NCBI GenBank assembly: GCA_010356995.1
Contig: ML996692.1
Coordinates: 1,251,933-1,279,343, forward strand
Source of the DNA: Trichodelitschia bisporula
Taxonomy: Eukaryota
Direction: 5' to 3'
Length of the DNA stretch: 27,411 bases
Positions within the stretch are counted from its first letter, which is position 1; each line of letters begins with the position of its first letter. The notes beneath the pieces were generated by a model. It did no database searches. It saw only the letters and a program-made list of their open reading frames with translations, and was not told the DNA's origin. Positions 1-8,169 of this stretch are shown one piece after another. The position numbers and the translations under genes are program-made.

Positions 1-1455
1 GATAGAAAGGATCTTCGAGGTGGAGGAGAGGGAGAGAGGGGATTTTGACGTGAGCGAGAAAGAAAATGTCCGACGAAGCACAAGACGACGAGGCATTGGA
101 TAGGCTATATGTGTAAGTTGGGGTGGGGCCACCGGAACAAGAATACGGAGATCTCCATGACAGGCAGGGGACGGAAAGTGGTAGGCTTAGATGCCAGGCA
201 CGCCGCAACACCAGGTTGTATGGTTTGTCGATTAGTTCTAGGTCTCACCGTTCGGTACAGGCGTACAGCGCACGCACACTCGGCTTGTGATGATCAGGAC
301 GCAAGCAGCTAGAACCTTGAAGGCCGCAGGAGGCTCAAAGCCTCCTACAAGGTTGCCTATTCGGAGAGCTGAGAGCGAGGTGCAGGCCAAGCGATGGTGC
401 ATCAGCAAGATGACCTATTTTTGGCCCCCAACTCGCCGAGCTGCTGGAAAGTGAACAGCGGAGGAGCTTGTTTGTTTGTTTGAGGTTGGACCTTGGCTTC
501 GGCCTTTCCTTCCAACCAGCCTCATGCTGTGCGCAGCTTGGAAACACGGCAAAGAGCGGGGATGGTTGTACGCGGGGATTGCTGTAAGTCTTCGGGCCAT
601 TCGATGTCCCTTCCTACCGACTCCTTGAGGACGACACAAGACCGACCTTTGGATGACCGACATCCTTCTAGCCAGAGAGCTGCGTTCCACTATGTTGTCC
701 GGTCGACACATGCAAAGAGGGGGTTTGCCGGACATTCACGGAACCAAGAGATGATGGGCAAGATTGATGCTTTTCAGGTGTCCAGCAACGGTCGCGGTAT
801 GCGCCCCACTTCCCAGCCCGTGGCTTTGCAAGCATTTCCCAGGCCGGGGGCCAGTTACGGTAGGGGACCATGTGCTGCCCTGTGCATCCGAGCTAACCAC
901 CCCAAGAGGAAAGGCGCAGTCCTGTTCAAGTCAAGCCTCCCCCGCTCCCGTTCCCGGCACGGCTTGGCGCGGCGTGGCTTGACCCTACAGCCTTAAAAAG
1001 CGCCTGAATTGGTGCCTGGCGACTTATCTCAACACCAAAAAGAGCTTCGGATGGCACTGTGATCGACGGTCATCAATTGATCGCTCATCTACCGTTCCAT
1101 CGTCCCACTGCTTACAGGACTGCTGCTTCTTTTGTCCTTTGGGAATGTCAGCTTCGACCTTGGCCCTCCTTCCTTTGACTGGAAATTGCTCTCTCGCCAC
1201 ACTGCTCCTGCCGGCGTCCGCGACCACCTCATCCTCATTCCACTACAATACTCCGTAATCTCACGAGAACGCTCCCGGATCCCACGCGCGGTTCTGGAAC
1301 GCAATCTGGTCTTTGGACCTCATTCACTATACGGTATACCCCTCAGCCCAAATCCAGCCACAATCCCGATCCCCCGAGTCCAGACCAAACATCTCGAACA
1401 AAGCAAACGCGTCATGTGCACGTTTTTCGCCTCATACCGGTCTTGACACATGCCT

Positions 1456-2081
1456 TCACGAAGCCGGTGTTCCAGCTGCGATACCAGTAGGGCTATTGCT
1501 CATCGCCGCTGCTTCACCTCCAGATCCCAATCCCCCGAATAGCGCCCCGAAGCCACCTGCAAAGCTTCAGACTTCCGAGATCACCCAAATCGGAGGAACT
1601 GGATCTGGTCAAGACGTACCACCACTGCTGCTTCCTCCCAACAGCCCACCGATCCCTAAACAAAAGTTAGGATCGCTGTCGACGTACAGTGTGCGCGGAA
1701 GGCTCATTACCTCCACCTCCGCTCCCAAGCCCGCCCAGCAGCCCAGCTAATGCCCCGCTACTAGCTTCACCACGTTAAAACCGACTTCAGAGTCACATGG
1801 GAAAGCGTACCTCCGGTACTGCTTCCAAATCCACCCAGCAGTCCTCCAAGGCCGTTGAGGTTCCCGAGCGACGGTAGAGCACCTGGAGATACATCAACGT
1901 GCCGTCCCACCCAATTCGTCACCAGAAAGACGTACCCCCTCCCCCAAACAGCCCACCACCACTCGCCAGTCCCAAACCTATCCTGATCAGCCTCGAATAT
2001 CGTCATACATTGGCTAGACGCACTTTGCGGGACGGGAACCGCGAGCGCTGCAGGGACGGCCAAAAGCGGGAGAAAGCGCAT
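1456..2081 (-). CDS. Small secreted Gly/Leu-rich protein, ~120 aa, 6 exons (2081-2024, 1977-1936, 1882-1811, 1764-1711, 1655-1620, 1556-1456)
   Basis: Signal-peptide-like start MRFLPLLAVPAALAVPVPQ. Five introns have fungal donors (GTGCGT, GTACGT, GTACGC, GTAATG, GTACGT) and YAG/AAG acceptors; branch sites GCTGAT, TTTAAC and CCTAAC are visible in three of them. Splicing gives one open frame: ...SLGLASGGGLFGGG/GALPSLGNLNGLGGLLGGFGSSTG/ASSGALAGLLGGLGSGGG/GIGGLLGGSSSG/GGFGALFGGLGSGGEAAAMSNSPTGIAAGTPAS*. The exon 4 acceptor could instead be the TAG at 1747 (same frame). Confidence 0.75.
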
Positions 2082-2098
2082 ATCTGCCGCGATGTTGA

Positions 2099-2191
2099 GT
2101 TGCAGAGCAAGAGGGAGTGAATGCAGAACGCGATACTGGGTTGCAGAACAGAAGGGAGTGGCGATGCCCAGTTGCAGAACAGAAGGGAGTG
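2099..2191. repeat. Three copies of a 21-bp direct repeat in the predicted 5' UTR of the secreted-protein gene
   Basis: GTTGCAGAACAGAAGGGAGTG is identical at 2140-2160 and 2171-2191, with a diverged copy GTTGCAGAGCAAGAGGGAGTG at 2099-2119. Confidence 0.9.
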
Positions 2192-2234
2192 AATACCGCA
2201 CACGCGTCCAGTTTGCAAATGCATGTCGTCGGGC

Positions 2235-2240
2235 TATATA
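2235..2240 (-). promoter_or_regulatory. Candidate TATA box for the secreted-protein gene
   Basis: TATATA ~155 nt upstream of the ATG at 2081, in otherwise GC-rich sequence. Confidence 0.4.
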
Positions 2241-2710
2241 CCGCACATCCAACCCCCAGCTCGCATATCACCTGGAATTCCTATAGCTCGAACGCACCAG
2301 CTTCGCACCTTCCAAACCACATCATTAACCCCGGCGTCGCTATAATTCTCACAAGCCCTTCCCAGCGCTCTCTCCACAGTAGCCCCTCCCCACCCATCCG
2401 CCCTCGCCGACCAGCCCTATATCCGAAACACGCACACAGCACCCGCTCGACGTCACCAGAACGGAAGGCTGCAAAACGGGCACTAAACGCCAATTCCCAG
2501 GAACGACGATCGCCGTTCGACGGGGCCGAGAGTAGCAGCGTGATAAAAAATATAAGCTTTGGGCCTCGGAGCCCCTCCCGCCATCTGTCCATTCTTGCGT
2601 GCTTACTATGTGGTCTCATATGTCGTCCCCGGAGCTCTAAAGTGCCGAAGGTCCAGCACTAACTCATCCCTGGACGTTCTGCAATACCGCTGTCCGACGC
2701 TGTACACGCC

Positions 2711-4271
2711 CTACACACCATGCCTATCCCCAGCACCCGCCACAAGCCTCTTGACCATCCCGCAAAAGCTCTCAAACACCACCGCCTCCACGCCATACAC
2801 CCACCTAACCTCAACCCCCTCCTCCCTAACCTCAATCCCAAACCCAAACACAACGGGTGCATTCGTCTCCATACCCTCCCCCCCCGCATGCCTCTTCCGC
2901 CGCGCAGCGCGCGTCCACACAGCTCCCGTCGCGAAGCCCGCGCCCCGCAGGGTATCTGCATCCCATGTCCAGCGCATATCGAGGGTGCGCATCTCCGCGT
3001 CGAGACACGTGGCTACACCTGTGTGCGTCATCCCGGTGAAAGGGACTGTGAACTCAGGCGGGAAGGGCAGAAGGTCCTTCGCGCCGACGTCGCCGCGGGC
3101 GACATCCTGGGTGGATCAGCATCCACAATGGAGAGACAAGAATGGAGGTAAACGCACACCGCTAGGCCTCCACGCCCCCCAGCTCCACGCCACAACCCAG
3201 CGCCTCGTCTTCCCCCCCGGCCTCAGCACCCCCACCGCCCAATTCGCGCACCCAGCTTGCCGGAGCGCCTCCACCACGGGCCGCAAACTCACCAACCGGC
3301 CGAGCAGACTCGAGAACCACTGTACGCGATCCCGCGTCCCGGGCGCGGCGCTCTCAGCCACAAGCCGCGTGACGAAGGCGACTTCCCCGCCTGGCGTGAT
3401 CATTTCTGATTCCGAGCCGGTGCAGACTGCGGAGGGGGGGGTGGATTTGGTCCATGTTGCGGAGAGCTCGGACTGGGAGGCGAAGAAGGGCGGGTTGCAC
3501 ATGGTGAAGTCGATGGGCCCGGGCGGGAGCGGGGGGAGGAGCGGGGGTGTGCAAGGGGGGCCGAGTAGGTCGACGGAGGAGCCGAGGGAGGGGCGGTGGA
3601 GGGTGATGTCGCCGGCGAGGTTGTTGAGTGCGATGTTGAAGGCTGCGGAGGTGATGCTGTGGACGTCGAGTTCGGTGGCTATGAACTTCCAGGTTGGGTG
3701 GGTGGCGCAGGCGAGGAGGGGGTAGATTGCTGATGCGCCGGTGCCGCTGGGTGGGTTAGTCGGGTTGAGGATGTGGGGGGGGGGAGGGGGCGGACATATC
3801 TATGCCGGTGATGGGGCGGTTAGGGTTGGCGGGGGTGGGGAAGGTGGGTGTTGTTGAGTCCAGGAGGCGGGATATCCATTGGATGTAGGCCCATCTGTAG
3901 GATTAGAAGGGTTGATGGTGGAGGGTGACGATGCGGTGGTCTTACCGCTGGGGAACCTGGGTTCGAGGTTAGCCTCTTGGACTCGTCGCTTGCAAAACAC
4001 ATACCGGTGGACACAATCTGTCACTTGGAAGCTCGATCTGGAGCCCAAAATCTCGCTTCAGGAGACTCTTGGTTAACTGCCTGAGCAACTTAGCGAGGTC
4101 CGTATGTAATAAGAGCAGCCCAAAGCGAACTAACTGGACATGTTCTGGGTTCTGGTAGTCGATATGGCCCTTATTGGCCTTGAAAATTTTAGCAAAGTCC
4201 TCGTCATTGCGCGCGAGGTCGGCAAAGCTAATCTTCGTGCTCTCGTAATCGGGACCGTGGGGGGTGGACAT
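2711..4271 (-). CDS. METTL16: METTL16/RlmF-family (DUF890) RNA N6-adenosine methyltransferase, U6 snRNA m6A writer, ~435 aa, 6 exons (4271-4135, 4080-4005, 3956-3946, 3894-3796, 3746-3158, 3106-2711)
   Basis: Family motifs LTKSLLKRDFGL..LPSDRLCPPVPQR, the SAM-binding GIDIGTGASAIYPLL, the catalytic MCNPPFF, EMITPGGEVAFV, WFSSLLG and TRRWVVAWSW. All exon junctions are phase-consistent. Confidence 0.92.
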
Positions 4272-4546
4272 GGTGGGGTTCGTCGTGGTGGGGTGTGGAG
4301 ATGAGGTTGGGATGTATCGTTGCGAGCGGCACGTGAAGTTCCTGTGCTCTCAAACTCAGCCTTGGGATAAATCTGGCACACCACCTACGATCGACGATGA
4401 GAGACGTGATGAAACGTATGAAAAGGACGTCCAGGGCTGGAGTTGCGAAAATGAACATCAATTTTGCTGTCCTCTAGGGTATGGACAGACAAGCCGGTTA
4501 CAGAGTCGCCTCTGGTTCTAGCATATCAACACGCATCCGAAGCCCA

Positions 4547-5387
4547 TCACCACCATCCGAATGATCCATCAAATACCGGTGCCACGGGATTGTTCGCCAG
4601 TCGCAGCTCCTCCAATGACGGCACAATGCCAGACTTGTAGTACTGCAGCAGCCAATTCATGTCCTCCTCCGTCATCTCACACAGGTCGTCCAGACTCCAC
4701 TTCTCACACACCTTAGACATCCTGCAAACACATCAGAAGCGGCACAGAAGCACCTCAATCTCACTCACCACTGCATCCTCTTCGGCCCCTCCTCCTGAGC
4801 CGGCGCCATCTTCCTCAACTTCCTCCTCAAAACCCCCACCTTCCGAATCGCCCCCCCCGTATTATCCGGCAAACACGCCGCAATCCTCCTCCTAATAATA
4901 TTCGCCAGTTTCGGCCCATTCCCATTCGTACTAATCATAACCTGTAACGGCCCATCACGATGCACACTCCCGAAGTAAAAATCGCACTCCGGAGGCACAT
5001 CCGCCACATTCACCGGAATGCGCCGCTCCTTGCATAACGTCCACACCTGCGTGCTCGCCGCAGGATCATCCACCGCCGTAAGCACCATATCCACGCCGTC
5101 CAGGTCCTCGGGCAGGAAATTGCGGTCGATGTGGGTGACTTGCTTCTGCGCGACGCGGAAGGCGACTTCGTCATTTAATCCCTCGGCAGGACATACGACC
5201 GTGACTTTGGCATCGGCGTTGAGCACGTTGAGGATGCGGCCTGCAGCGACCTGCGCGGTTAGCGGGGTGTGCGGCATGTGGGAGGGCGGCTTACTTCTCC
5301 CCCGCCGACGACGAGGATGTGCTTGTTGCGCACTTGCCAGGCGAGGATGAGGGAGCCTCCGCCTTGTACTTCGGGGAATTGCTTCAT
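4547..5387 (-). CDS. MET8: Siroheme biosynthesis protein Met8 (precorrin-2 dehydrogenase / sirohydrochlorin ferrochelatase), ~249 aa, 3 exons (5387-5295, 5250-4769, 4721-4547)
   Basis: GGGSLILAWQVRNKHILVVGGGEVAAGRI (NAD-binding), VNVADVPPECDFYFGSVHRDGPLQVMISTNGNGPKLA and RMQWMSKVCEKWSL. Introns are canonical. Confidence 0.95.
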
Positions 5388-5459
5388 GGCGGTAGAGAGT
5401 GGGGGTTGGGCGGCATTGGTGACAGGCGGTGCTGTGGAGCGGTACGTGAAGCGCGGGTG

Positions 5460-5553
5460 ATGGCGATGGCGCAACGCGTCACGGGCTTGGGCGGAGGGAT
5501 CTGCTTTTTTGGTCAAGCACGTGGTAGGCTAGATTTTTGGGTGCTGGCGTCAT
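5460..5553. promoter_or_regulatory. Candidate sulfur-regulon sites in the MET8 promoter (CYS3/MetR-like and E-box)
   Basis: CTGGCGTCAT at 5544-5553 matches the Neurospora CYS3 consensus ATGRYRYCAT at 9/10. ATGGCGCAAC at 5466-5475 matches at 8/10. CACGTG lies at 5518-5523. Confidence 0.4.
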
Positions 5554-5835
5554 GGCATGTGATAGACACCCACGAGCTTCGAACAGTATGCTTTGTTGAC
5601 TTCGGTACCTCCGTACAGTTACAACTATGGACAATCTTTTCTACGCCATCCTAAACTCCGTCGCTACAGCTAGCTTCCAGCAGATGATCCAAGGGCTGCC
5701 TTGGCCTCTGACCAAATTACCGCCAACTTCTCCAACATCTTCGCGATTGCGGCGAACTAGCCTTCAATCCGCTTCAACCCCCTTCTATCATATGTACACT
5801 CCAGAATTCTTCGATATGCACACTCAGCAGCTCCT

Positions 5836-7664
<1,829 letters not shown>

Positions 7665-8169
7665 TGCGGGCGGATAGTGTCGAGTCGAGAAACAGCTCCC
7701 ACTCTGCGGAACCAAGTGAAGATAGCTTCGAGGCGAGTAAGAGTTCGAGGGAAAAACTCTGGGGGCGACGCGGGGTTTAGGCACAGGGCTTTATTATTCG
7801 AATTTCACGACGGACCCACCGCTGCTCGTGGGGCAATGGGGAGCTATGGAAACTACGCAATCATGCACCTGTCGGAGCGTGGGTTGAGAGTGCTCATTGG
7901 TCTACTCCGCCTCCCCCGCGGTTCCTGAGGAGACTTGAGGGGCTTAGCGTCACTCTCCCTCATAGCCGCCCCAGCCCGCGGGCGGGTGGGCCGAAATATC
8001 CCCGTTCGGCATACTTCTGGACCATACGATAGCAATACTAGCCAAAATATCCGGAGATCCCACCGATCGGATTACGAAAGCAACTACCCACGCGCTAGTC
8101 GCTAGTACGCTGCTTAGTAGGCACATCGTGACATCCTCCCGGTACCGTACTCGTACGTCCGGGGCCTTG

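What the first reader, a model, noticed from the sequence alone, without database searches (positions are those of the whole stretch)
1456..2081. Hidden secreted Gly-Leu protein built from symmetric phase-1 mini-exons, one GLLGG/GLFGG motif per exon
Seen: all five introns are phase 1 and the four internal exons (42, 72, 54 and 36 nt) are multiples of 3. Each exon after the signal peptide carries one G-G/A-L-(L/F)-G-G core. The predicted mature chain (~105 aa) has no Cys, Lys, Arg or Asp and a single Glu. Inference: any internal exon can be skipped or duplicated without frameshift, so this looks like a modular cassette gene grown by exon duplication. It could give length-variable isoforms of a Cys-free, self-assembling (glycine-zipper or amyloid-like) surface or membrane-active protein, distinct from the 8-Cys hydrophobins. 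The ORF track misses it.
Basis: partly seen in the sequence, partly recalled or inferred. Interest (0 to 1): 0.75.

Follow-up and report, generated by a model that had tools for sequence, protein, structure and literature searches.

The report
Exon-modular secreted glycine-leucine fungal protein
A fungus carries a probably real but unconfirmed small gene for a secreted, cysteine-free protein of glycine-leucine repeats, with one repeat per short exon; it seems to have grown by copying exon-plus-intron units and may coat or stick to water-repellent surfaces.

Summary
The six-exon model (minus strand, 2081-1456, 120 aa) is in the sequence as described. All five introns are phase 1 and fit this fungus's own splice signals (0 of 300 shuffles score as well). 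One core lies in each exon after the signal exon (about 1-2% by random placement). Splicing is not confirmed: contigs of two RNA runs from one sample splice ten neighbouring introns but cross this locus unspliced, plausibly as an antisense transcript. No homologue was found. The repeat kind is not unique: Gly/Ser/Leu arms behind the same signal-(X-Pro)n-Gln start precede fungal cutinases and a GH114 enzyme, where they lie in one open frame. A second secreted Gly-rich gene in this genome has 3.8 near-identical 57-nt-exon + 50-nt-phase-1-intron units, so growth by module duplication is supported. Isoforms by exon skipping are unsupported and unlikely in a short-intron fungus. Best reading: a condition-specific, constitutively spliced gene for an uncharged amphipathic surface protein. 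It is not a hydrophobin, repellent or micro-exon gene by definition. Poor codon use leaves a decaying remnant open. The scan's index held no look-alike of this sequence.

The parts
2235..2240 (-). TATA-like box (TATATA)
   Evidence: only TATATA/TATAAA match in 2082-2300; function inferred
2089..2217 (-). pyrimidine-rich probable 5' leader with an imperfect direct repeat
   Evidence: two 57-nt copies 72 nt apart, 72% alike; pyrimidine fraction 0.66 over 2082-2200
2024..2081 (-). exon 1 (58 nt): Met, signal peptide, two X-Pro dipeptides and Gln
   Evidence: Arg at 2, 16-residue apolar run, Ala at -3 and -1 for cleavage after residue 14; no signal-peptide predictor was available
1978..2023 (-). 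intron 1 (46 nt, phase 1, donor GTGCGT, branch at -13)
   Evidence: 14.0 bits; same donor in 2 of 10 RNA-confirmed introns; not seen spliced
1936..1977 (-). exon 2 (42 nt), core GGLFGG
1883..1935 (-). intron 2 (53 nt, phase 1, donor GTACGT)
   Evidence: 11.7 bits; not seen spliced
1811..1882 (-). exon 3 (72 nt), core GGLLGG
   Evidence: 8 Gly codons in the predicted frame against 1 and 1 in the others
1765..1810 (-). intron 3 (46 nt, phase 1, donor GTACGC, AAG acceptor)
   Evidence: 8.4 bits; a competing out-of-frame acceptor at 1758 scores 9.0; not seen spliced
1711..1764 (-). exon 4 (54 nt), core AGLLGG
1656..1710 (-). intron 4 (55 nt, phase 1, weak donor GTAATG, branch CCTAAC at -15)
   Evidence: 7.4 bits; an overlapping alternative 1687-1628 scores 11.3; not seen spliced
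1620..1655 (-). exon 5 (36 nt), core GGLLGG
1557..1619 (-). intron 5 (63 nt, phase 1, donor GTACGT; holds an in-frame stop if retained)
   Evidence: 13.8 bits; retention ends the frame at 90 aa; not seen spliced
1456..1556 (-). exon 6 (101 nt): core GALFGG, polar Ala/Ser/Thr/Pro tail, TGA stop
   Evidence: no catalytic domain visible downstream in three frames
860..906 (+). 47-nt GT..AG intron on the opposite strand (branch GCTAAC, AAG acceptor): sign of an antisense transcript heading into the gene
   Evidence: joint 858-906 in one contig of run X2, depth 2.1, 27 letters on the short side; signals read; weak
906..2387 (.). span of the unspliced contig of run X1 that crosses the whole gene
   Evidence: record 1 (1482 nt, no gaps); in run X2 an unspliced piece runs 1198-3105 and is joined to the spliced methyltransferase transcript

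Best explanation
A real but condition-specific protein-coding gene of a filamentous fungus, silent or rare in the one sampled culture. Origin (inferred, well supported): a unit of one short Gly/Leu exon plus its phase-1 intron was copied in tandem several times, so repeat number changed at the DNA level; the copies have since diverged. Expression (inferred): the six exons are spliced constitutively by intron definition into one main 120-aa product. Processing (inferred; dipeptide trimming recalled, from no call): the signal is cut after residue 14, the two X-Pro dipeptides may be trimmed, and with no Lys or Arg there is no Kex2 cut, so an uncharged chain of about 9 kDa is released whole. Action (inferred, least secure): each core folds at an interface into a short amphipathic helix with a Leu/Phe face and a Gly face, the Gly/Ser linkers stay flexible, and five cores act together to adsorb to wax, cutin, lipid or the air-water surface and pack on each other through GxxxG faces. 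It would work like a repellent or hydrophobin film, a coat, surfactant or adhesive of aerial or reproductive structures, without being a member of those families. It is the stand-alone form of the Gly/Ser/Leu arm found in front of many fungal cutinases.
For: Shown: splice signals match this genome's confirmed introns, with branch sites at -13 to -15; Gly codons sit in the predicted frame of every exon; TATA-like box, pyrimidine-rich leader and signal peptide are in place. The DNA motif for GG-L/F-L/F-GG occurs 106 times in the 25.8-Mb genome and 3 of them lie in this locus. Register and donor statistics favour module copying; exon ends with their donors are alike (37 nt at 73%, 21 nt at 81%). 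Locus L157 (G000:C18) holds a secreted, Cys-free, Gly-rich gene with 3.8 copies of a 107-nt exon+phase-1-intron unit, introns 43-49 of 50 identical. Four of 5 cores have a helical hydrophobic moment of 0.9-1.44; GxxxG count is 21 against 15.0 +/- 2.4 (24 of 2000 shuffles reach it); GRAVY 0.58, no transmembrane-strength stretch after the signal. The same start and repeat kind precede cutinase domains in 17 of 62 metagenome loci and 8 of 115 representative proteins, and a GH114 domain in this genome. Cys-free amphipathic repeats replace hydrophobins in Ustilago (PMC13514795, PMC3133707; passages).
Against: No spliced junction in the RNA contigs, which cross the locus unspliced. Codon use is unlike that of other genes here (GC3 0.52 against 0.65-0.79 in 9 comparison stretches; GGC 3 of 40 Gly codons), which is unexpected for an abundant structural protein. 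Introns 3 and 4 score lowest and have competing sites. Intron interiors are not clearly more alike than unrelated introns (mean z 0.93 over 10 pairs against 0.27 +/- 1.07 over 45). No homologue was found, so there is no conservation test. Likeness to cutinase arms is mostly compositional: 2 of 18 and 1 of 17 targets beat all 300 shuffles. The register statistics were defined after seeing the data. Nothing here tests the function.
Confidence: 0.42

Rival explanations
1. A decaying or silenced remnant: once a secreted Gly-rich gene, or the detached N-terminal arm of a cutinase-like enzyme, now under weak selection and overlaid by antisense transcription.
For: Unspliced RNA across the locus and a plus-strand intron at 860-906; poor codon use; weak introns 3 and 4; no homologues; about 23 cutinase loci in the genome could supply fragments (34 matches).
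Against: Frame, signal peptide, five donor-branch-acceptor sets and TATA-like box are all intact. No cutinase remnant lies downstream (read by eye). The in-genome cutinase arm has no introns and only z 1.1 against the finding.
Confidence: 0.2
2. The product is a membrane-active peptide like the Gly/Leu-rich antimicrobials (plasticins, leptoglycin): glycine-zipper helices insert into and damage membranes of competitors.
For: Gly/Leu-rich, uncharged, GxxxG-enriched, amphipathic cores. Such peptides are described as uncharged or weakly charged and active against Gram-negative bacteria or fungi (PMC8156082, passages); snail mucus peptides carry the same GGLLGG word (PMC11206429, passages).
Against: No dibasic sites to release short peptides, no cationic residue, one acidic residue. 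Cores are too short to span a bilayer; best 19-residue hydropathy after the signal is 1.28. The same repeat kind serves as an arm of secreted enzymes.
Confidence: 0.12
3. Origin rival (compatible with the same function): an intronless Gly-rich gene gained five introns independently at Gly-codon proto-splice sites, which gives phase 1 and symmetric exons without exon duplication.
For: 60% of G|G junctions in this CDS are phase 1. Phase-1 sites correspond to Gly codons and are enriched near signal cleavage sites (PMC1626468, passages). The single introns of two other Gly-rich genes here are also phase 1 at Gly (L016, L190). Intron interiors are not alike.
Against: It does not explain one core per exon (1.5% at phase-1 G|G sites) or three GTACG donors, nor five introns in 363 coding nt when cutinase arms of 147-290 aa have none. 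The C18 gene shows module copying in this genome.
Confidence: 0.2
4. A micro-exon-gene-like cassette system: internal exons are skipped to give a set of length isoforms.
For: All 16 combinations stay in frame, 52-120 aa. Symmetric small exons carry 204 of 363 coding nt, with a signal peptide, as in schistosome MEGs (PMC4350168, passages).
Against: No spliced or skipped form seen. Introns of 46-63 nt point to intron definition, which favours retention over skipping in fungi (PMC12861292, passages); skipping is 1% of coding events in Schizophyllum and 0.5% of events in Coprinopsis (PMC5034255, PMC12230235; passages). Retention of any of the five introns truncates the protein (38-90 aa).
Confidence: 0.07
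5. No protein gene: a G-rich stretch inside a non-coding or read-through transcript that happens to allow a spliced model.
For: Only unspliced RNA is seen; no homologue, Pfam family or Atlas hit.
Against: 0 of 300 shuffles reach the splice-chain score, and the opposite strand scores far lower; five cores in register with a signal exon. The plus-strand frame over the gene (1259-1750) has no Met; Rfam finds nothing.
Confidence: 0.05

Closest known systems
Gly/Ser/Leu-rich N-terminal arms of fungal cutinases (PF01083) and of a GH114 enzyme (PF03537); seen here's sequences, no paper describing them found
   Same: Signal peptide, then X-Pro or a short spacer and Gln, then nearly Cys-free Gly/Ser/Leu repeats with short Leu/Phe cores; arm length varies among close relatives (147-215 aa in seven loci of one cluster).
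   Different: The finding has no catalytic domain and its repeats are split one per exon. In all 17 metagenome loci the cores lie in one open frame. Homology beyond composition is not shown.
Ustilago maydis repellents (Rep1) and other Kex2-processed repeat proteins (PMC3133707, passages)
   Same: Signal peptide plus amphipathic repeats with no enzyme domain; the proposed surface role is modelled on them.
   Different: Rep1 is cut at Kex2 sites into peptides of 34-53 aa; the finding has no Lys or Arg after the signal, units of 12-24 aa, and is Gly-rich.
Hydrophobins (PMC13514795, passages)
   Same: Small (70-130 aa), secreted, probably interface-active.
   Different: No Cys at all against eight conserved Cys; no compact disulfide fold.
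Schistosome micro-exon genes, MEGs (PMC4350168, passages; bioRxiv 10.1101/2023.06.21.545858, search listing only)
   Same: Secreted product, most of the coding region in small symmetric exons.
   Different: MEGs have long introns, shown alternative splicing and are limited to flatworms; here introns are 46-63 nt, exons are repeats of one motif, and no skipping is seen.
Gly/Leu-rich antimicrobial peptides: plasticins, leptoglycin, XT7 (PMC8156082, passages)
   Same: Gly/Leu-rich, uncharged or weakly charged, linear, GxxxG motifs.
   Different: Those are short animal peptides; the finding is a five-core chain of about 100 aa with no release sites, and activity is untested.

Membership tests
Hydrophobin | Eight conserved Cys forming four disulfides | tested here: not met
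   0 Cys; definition from PMC13514795
Hydrophobin | Small secreted protein of about 70-130 aa | tested here: met
   120 aa with a signal-like N-terminus, if spliced as modelled
Hydrophobin / repellent | Self-assembly into an amphipathic film or amyloid | not testable with these tools
   needs bench assays
Repellent / Kex2-processed repeat protein | Repeats separated by Kex2 sites | tested here: not met
   no Lys or Arg after residue 2; definition from PMC3133707
Repellent / Kex2-processed repeat protein | Signal peptide followed by amphipathic repeats, no enzyme domain | tested here: met
   five cores, four amphipathic; no Pfam match for the two window frames scanned
Micro-exon gene (MEG) | Most of the coding region in small symmetric exons, with a signal peptide | tested here: met
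   four internal exons of 36-72 nt, 204 of 363 coding nt
Micro-exon gene (MEG) | Isoforms made by exon skipping | tested here: inconclusive
   no spliced form of any kind in two contig runs of one sample
Micro-exon gene (MEG) | Long introns; restricted to flatworms | tested here: not met
   introns 46-63 nt in a fungal genome
Cutinase with Gly/Ser/Leu arm | Cutinase domain PF01083 | tested here: not met
   none of 34 genome matches lies on this contig; stop at 1456 and no remnant downstream
Cutinase with Gly/Ser/Leu arm | Signal, X-Pro/Gln start, Gly/Ser/Leu repeats | tested here: met
Cutinase with Gly/Ser/Leu arm | Sequence homology of the arm beyond composition | tested here: inconclusive
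   2 of 18 and 1 of 17 targets beat all 300 shuffled queries
Gly/Leu-rich antimicrobial peptide | Gly/Leu-rich, uncharged, GxxxG-bearing | tested here: met
Gly/Leu-rich antimicrobial peptide | Antimicrobial or membrane activity | not testable with these tools
   needs bench assays
GPI-anchored wall protein | Hydrophobic C-terminal anchor signal (recalled definition) | tested here: not met
   the tail is a polar Ala/Ser/Thr/Pro stretch; hydropathy peak after the signal is 1.28 at residue 63

The most novel reading that the evidence does not exclude
Filamentous fungi have an overlooked class of Cys-free, Kex2-independent Gly/Leu surface proteins, a third way to make interface films beside hydrophobins and repellents. 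Their genes change valency by copying whole exon+phase-1-intron units (old copies here, fresh copies in the C18 gene), and in this gene the units are also skipped in splicing to give length isoforms, with an antisense transcript keeping the locus off until needed. The class would be missed by gene callers (short exons), homology search (low complexity) and trypsin proteomics (no Lys or Arg in this member).
Probability: 0.1. Interest if true: 0.72.

Novelty: new variant of a known kind. Interest (0 to 1): 0.38.

Why it matters
If real, it is a secreted protein that ORF tracks, homology search and tryptic proteomics would all miss. With the C18 gene it gives an old and a young snapshot, in one genome, of intron number and repeat number rising together by tandem copying of exon+intron units. 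It also offers the Gly/Ser/Leu arm of fungal cutinases as a free-standing protein, which makes the role of that arm (surface anchoring or surfactant) easy to test. The importance is moderate: one orphan gene, no expression proof, no function.

Tried and rejected
Homologue searches, all blank: own genome by DNA and by the unspliced 104-aa frame holding exons 1 and 3 (self only); word-indexed protein search with that frame (0 of 27 candidates), with an alignment of exon units (0 of 8000) and with the repeat part of the C15 protein (0 of 8000); Atlas twice; Pfam; JGI metagenomes (0 of 597 pattern hits). These used single exons or the unspliced frame, never the spliced protein, and low complexity blunts them, so they show neither absence nor novelty. 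Run finder: no holder on record as RNA was listed; the two runs proved to hold spliced neighbours. Parts of the stretch without contig cover were not used as evidence. Four copies of the exon-6 peptide were folded as a complex: no answer, score 0.02, no evidence either way. Two other pairs of close GG-L/F-L/F-GG matches (C4, C18:668 kb) were read and are not paralogues (the first looks by eye like the antisense of a DnaJ-type gene, a recalled label). 38 further motif loci were screened (3 were this locus): L007, L016 and L062 are Gly-rich repeats, and none showed this gene's one-core-per-short-exon layout in the motif screen. Upstream regions of 20 of about 23 cutinase loci were checked: only L030 had a core in frame. 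C6:632.5 kb is a 60-nt tandem repeat not followed further. The second exon-end pattern gave 105 matches, fewer than its reversed control (166); 100 were listed, 2 read in sequence, 2 more stretches fetched and not read. A further donor at 1517 that would extend the gene scored under 6 bits (absent from the list). GLFG nucleoporin (recalled motif) rejected: signal peptide and 120 aa. A coding gene on the plus strand was not supported: the long frame over the locus has no Met; short Met frames exist and were not searched. Rfam blank. Paper searches for this protein kind or architecture in fungi found nothing relevant; PMC8528282 has no passage on dipeptide trimming. No supplements were read.

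Full report
Setting. The window is fungal: 44-54-nt introns with CTRAY-type branch sites and a compact run of housekeeping genes (Pfam: Methyltransf_10, sirohaem synthase, acetyl-CoA hydrolase, RSE1/DDB1 propeller, TBC, SRP68, PPR, peptidase M28). It lies on contig C6 of a 25.8-Mb, 44-contig assembly, and the locus is single-copy at the DNA level. The finding sits on the minus strand between a GMC oxidoreductase to the left and the methyltransferase to the right. I did not identify the organism further.

The observation. The six-exon model is in the sequence exactly as given: exons of 58, 42, 72, 54, 36 and 101 nt, introns of 46, 53, 46, 55 and 63 nt, all phase 1, and an open frame of 120 aa. 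After residue 14 there are 40 Gly, 17 Leu, 15 Ser and 12 Ala in 106 residues, one Glu, and no Cys, Lys, Arg or Asp. A TATA-like box at 2240, a pyrimidine-rich leader and a signal-like N-terminus with Ala at -3 and -1 complete the picture. No signal predictor was on hand.

Is it more than chance? I trained a small splice model on ten introns of neighbouring genes that RNA contigs show joined. All five predicted introns score 7.4-14.0 bits, four have a consensus branch at -13 to -15 as in the confirmed set and the fifth a CTGAA variant at that place, and 0 of 300 dinucleotide shuffles reach the chain score at either threshold; the opposite strand scores half or less. Gly codons fall in the predicted frame in every exon. 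The core occurs five times against 0.27 in shuffled proteins (0 of 2000). The DNA motif for GG-L/F-L/F-GG has 106 matches in the genome, three of them here. Weak points: intron 3 needs an AAG acceptor with an out-of-frame rival of similar score, and intron 4 has a weak donor and an overlapping alternative of higher score.

RNA. Two runs of one sample hold the stretch. Laid on 600-8000, their contigs join ten CT..AC introns and one micro-exon joint in the neighbours, so they contain spliced RNA. None of the five predicted introns is joined: contigs cross the gene unspliced (906-2387 in X1; 1198-3105 in X2, there linked to the methyltransferase transcript). One shallow contig of X2 skips a 47-nt GT..AG intron on the plus strand at 860-906, with a textbook branch site and an AAG acceptor, and the X1 contig begins at that acceptor. 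The simplest reading is a plus-strand transcript over a gene that is off in this culture; read-through, retained introns or some DNA are not excluded. Contigs drop rare forms and give no strand. This result is against the gene being active here and leaves the model unconfirmed; it does not refute it. Codon use adds doubt about high expression: GC3 is 0.52 against 0.65-0.79 in nine comparison stretches and GGC is used for 3 of 40 Gly, whereas the C18 gene below uses GGT or GGC for 85 of 90.

How the architecture arose. Phase 1 alone says little. Forty of 67 G|G junctions in this CDS are phase 1, giving about 0.08 for five of five, and phase-1 sites are known to match Gly codons and to cluster near signal cleavage sites (PMC1626468, passages). 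The ten confirmed neighbour introns are six phase 0 and four phase 2. The register is stronger: five random junctions give one core per exon in 0.8-1.8% of 200,000 draws, and 0.15% together with all phase 1 at G|G sites; three of four internal donors are GTACG against 6 of 59 intron-like elements in 184 kb of this genome. These tests were framed after seeing the gene. Exon ends with their donors are alike, aligned cores share codons in 18 of 46 cases against 11.7 expected, but intron interiors are not clearly more alike than unrelated ones. The best support came from elsewhere in the genome. A pattern for two successive Gly|phase-1 donors (16 matches) led to L157 on contig C18: a gene for a secreted 231-aa protein (Gly 90, no Cys, four L-x-x-L-L-G-K-L/F-G cores in exon 1) whose 3' part is 3.8 copies of a 107-nt unit, a 57-nt exon plus a 50-nt phase-1 intron, with introns 43-49 of 50 identical. 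That is recent tandem copying of exon+intron units in the same kind of protein. It is a model from sequence, not checked against RNA, and it shows no sequence-order likeness to the finding (z 0.3). I read the finding as an older, diverged product of the same process.

Skipping. All 16 combinations of internal exons stay in frame (52-120 aa), but that is a property of the layout, not evidence of use. Short introns favour intron definition and retention in fungi (PMC12861292, passages); skipping is 1% of coding-region events in Schizophyllum (PMC5034255, passages) and 0.5% of events in Coprinopsis (PMC12230235, passages). Retaining any one intron truncates the protein to 38-90 aa.

Relatives. 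No homologue turned up, but every external query was a single exon or the unspliced frame. The repeat kind is common in secreted fungal proteins. In this genome: a cutinase on C16 with a core in its arm, a GH114 enzyme on C4 with five, a 444-aa Cys-free secreted protein on C15 with six and one phase-1 intron, and a Gly-rich gene on C11 with a phase-1 intron at Gly. Outside it: 8 of the 115 cutinase representatives with a located catalytic start (150 returned) have a core upstream, and 17 of the 62 metagenome cutinase loci with at least 400 nt upstream (80 returned) have two or more Gly/Ser/Leu cores, all in one open frame. These 17 form 7 clusters, 13 show a signal Met in that frame, several start signal-(X-Pro)n-Gln like the finding, and arm length runs 147-215 aa in seven loci of one cluster. 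Likeness to the finding is mostly compositional: 2 of 18 and 1 of 17 targets beat all 300 shuffled queries. So the repeat is a known sort of low-complexity arm; what is distinctive here is that it stands alone and is cut one unit per exon. The genome has 34 cutinase matches at about 23 places, which fits a life on waxy or polyester surfaces but proves nothing about this gene.

Mechanism. Shown: composition, repeat layout, amphipathy of four of five cores (moment 0.9-1.44 at 100 degrees; 0.24 for exon 2), modest GxxxG excess (24 of 2000 shuffles), mass 8.9 kDa, no membrane-spanning stretch after the signal and no anchor-like tail. Inferred: secretion, possible X-Pro trimming to an N-terminal Gln (recalled; not found in PMC8528282), release as one uncharged chain, folding of cores at an interface, and multivalent adsorption and packing into a film or adhesive layer. 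The precedent for function is the Ustilago repellents, amphipathic repeats that replace hydrophobins (PMC13514795 and PMC3133707, passages). The main functional rival is a membrane-active peptide like plasticins and leptoglycin (PMC8156082 and PMC11206429, passages), weakened by the lack of release sites and cationic residues.

Membership. Not a hydrophobin (no Cys), not a repellent or Kex2-processed repeat protein (no Lys or Arg), not a cutinase (no domain), not a micro-exon gene (short introns, skipping not shown, wrong lineage; PMC4350168, passages; bioRxiv 10.1101/2023.06.21.545858, listing only). It may work like a repellent. Paper searches for such a fungal protein, for phase-1 exon duplication in fungal Gly-rich secreted genes and for the cutinase arm found nothing relevant; the library lacks most subscription papers. 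The scan's index had no look-alike of this gene or of the C18 gene; it lists, unchecked, another orphan Gly-rich secreted gene and a tandem intron array in this genome.

Verdict. The gene is probably real (about 0.75-0.8) but unconfirmed, origin by module duplication is likely (about 0.75), a surface-film role is the best guess (about 0.6 given a real gene), and isoforms by skipping are unlikely (about 0.07). New variant of a known kind; interest 0.38.

Noticed in passing
L157:1341-2236, minus strand (G000:C18, about 390.0-390.9 kb): Gene for a secreted, Cys-free 231-aa Gly/Ala/Pro/Lys protein with 3.8 near-identical 107-nt units of 57-nt exon plus 50-nt phase-1 intron: a fresh case of intron gain by tandem exon+intron copying. 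A 35-nt repeat (3.2 copies, 98% match) ends at its TATA box. May deserve its own follow-up.
   Followed up: partly
L016:563-1996, minus strand (G000:C15, about 289-290.3 kb): Secreted 444-aa Cys-free low-complexity protein with six GLGALLGG-like cores, one phase-1 intron and no Pfam match.
   Followed up: partly
L190:1240-2801 and L194, minus strand (G000:C11, about 698.4-700.7 kb): Long Gly/Lys/Pro-rich repeat protein with a signal-like start and one phase-1 intron at a Gly codon whose ends resemble the C18 introns.
   Followed up: partly
G000, 34 matches at about 23 places: Large cutinase (PF01083) family for a 25.8-Mb genome; several members have long low-complexity or short Cys-containing N-terminal extensions.
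   Followed up: partly
L007:1204-2559 (G000:C4): Secreted GH114 enzyme with an N-terminal run of five LFGG-type repeats and a Pro/Ala/Glu-rich linker.
   Followed up: partly
window 3895-4003, minus strand: An 8-nt micro-exon between two introns of the methyltransferase gene, seen as letters between the sides of a joint in both runs.
   Followed up: no
window 860-906, plus strand: Spliced intron with AAG acceptor in a shallow transcript that runs antisense to the finding; a 132-codon Met frame starts at 562 in the spliced form, not searched.
   Followed up: partly
window 1-150 and L023:7286-9037, minus strand: Promoter and body of a secreted GMC oxidoreductase; the contig reaching into 600-846 is deep in run X1 and shallow in X2, which contigs cannot turn into an expression level.
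   Followed up: no
window 2089-2217: Imperfect direct repeat in the probable 5' leader, just downstream of the TATA-like box; the C18 gene also has a short tandem repeat at its promoter.
   Followed up: no
L083-L088, L104 (metagenome cutinases): Close relatives of one cutinase gene differ in the number of Gly/Ser/Leu repeats in an intron-free arm (147-215 aa).
   Followed up: partly
L191:1020-1197 (G000:C6, about 632.5 kb): Three copies of a 60-nt unit (90% match) that hold donor-like and acceptor-like words on the plus strand; role unclear.
   Followed up: no
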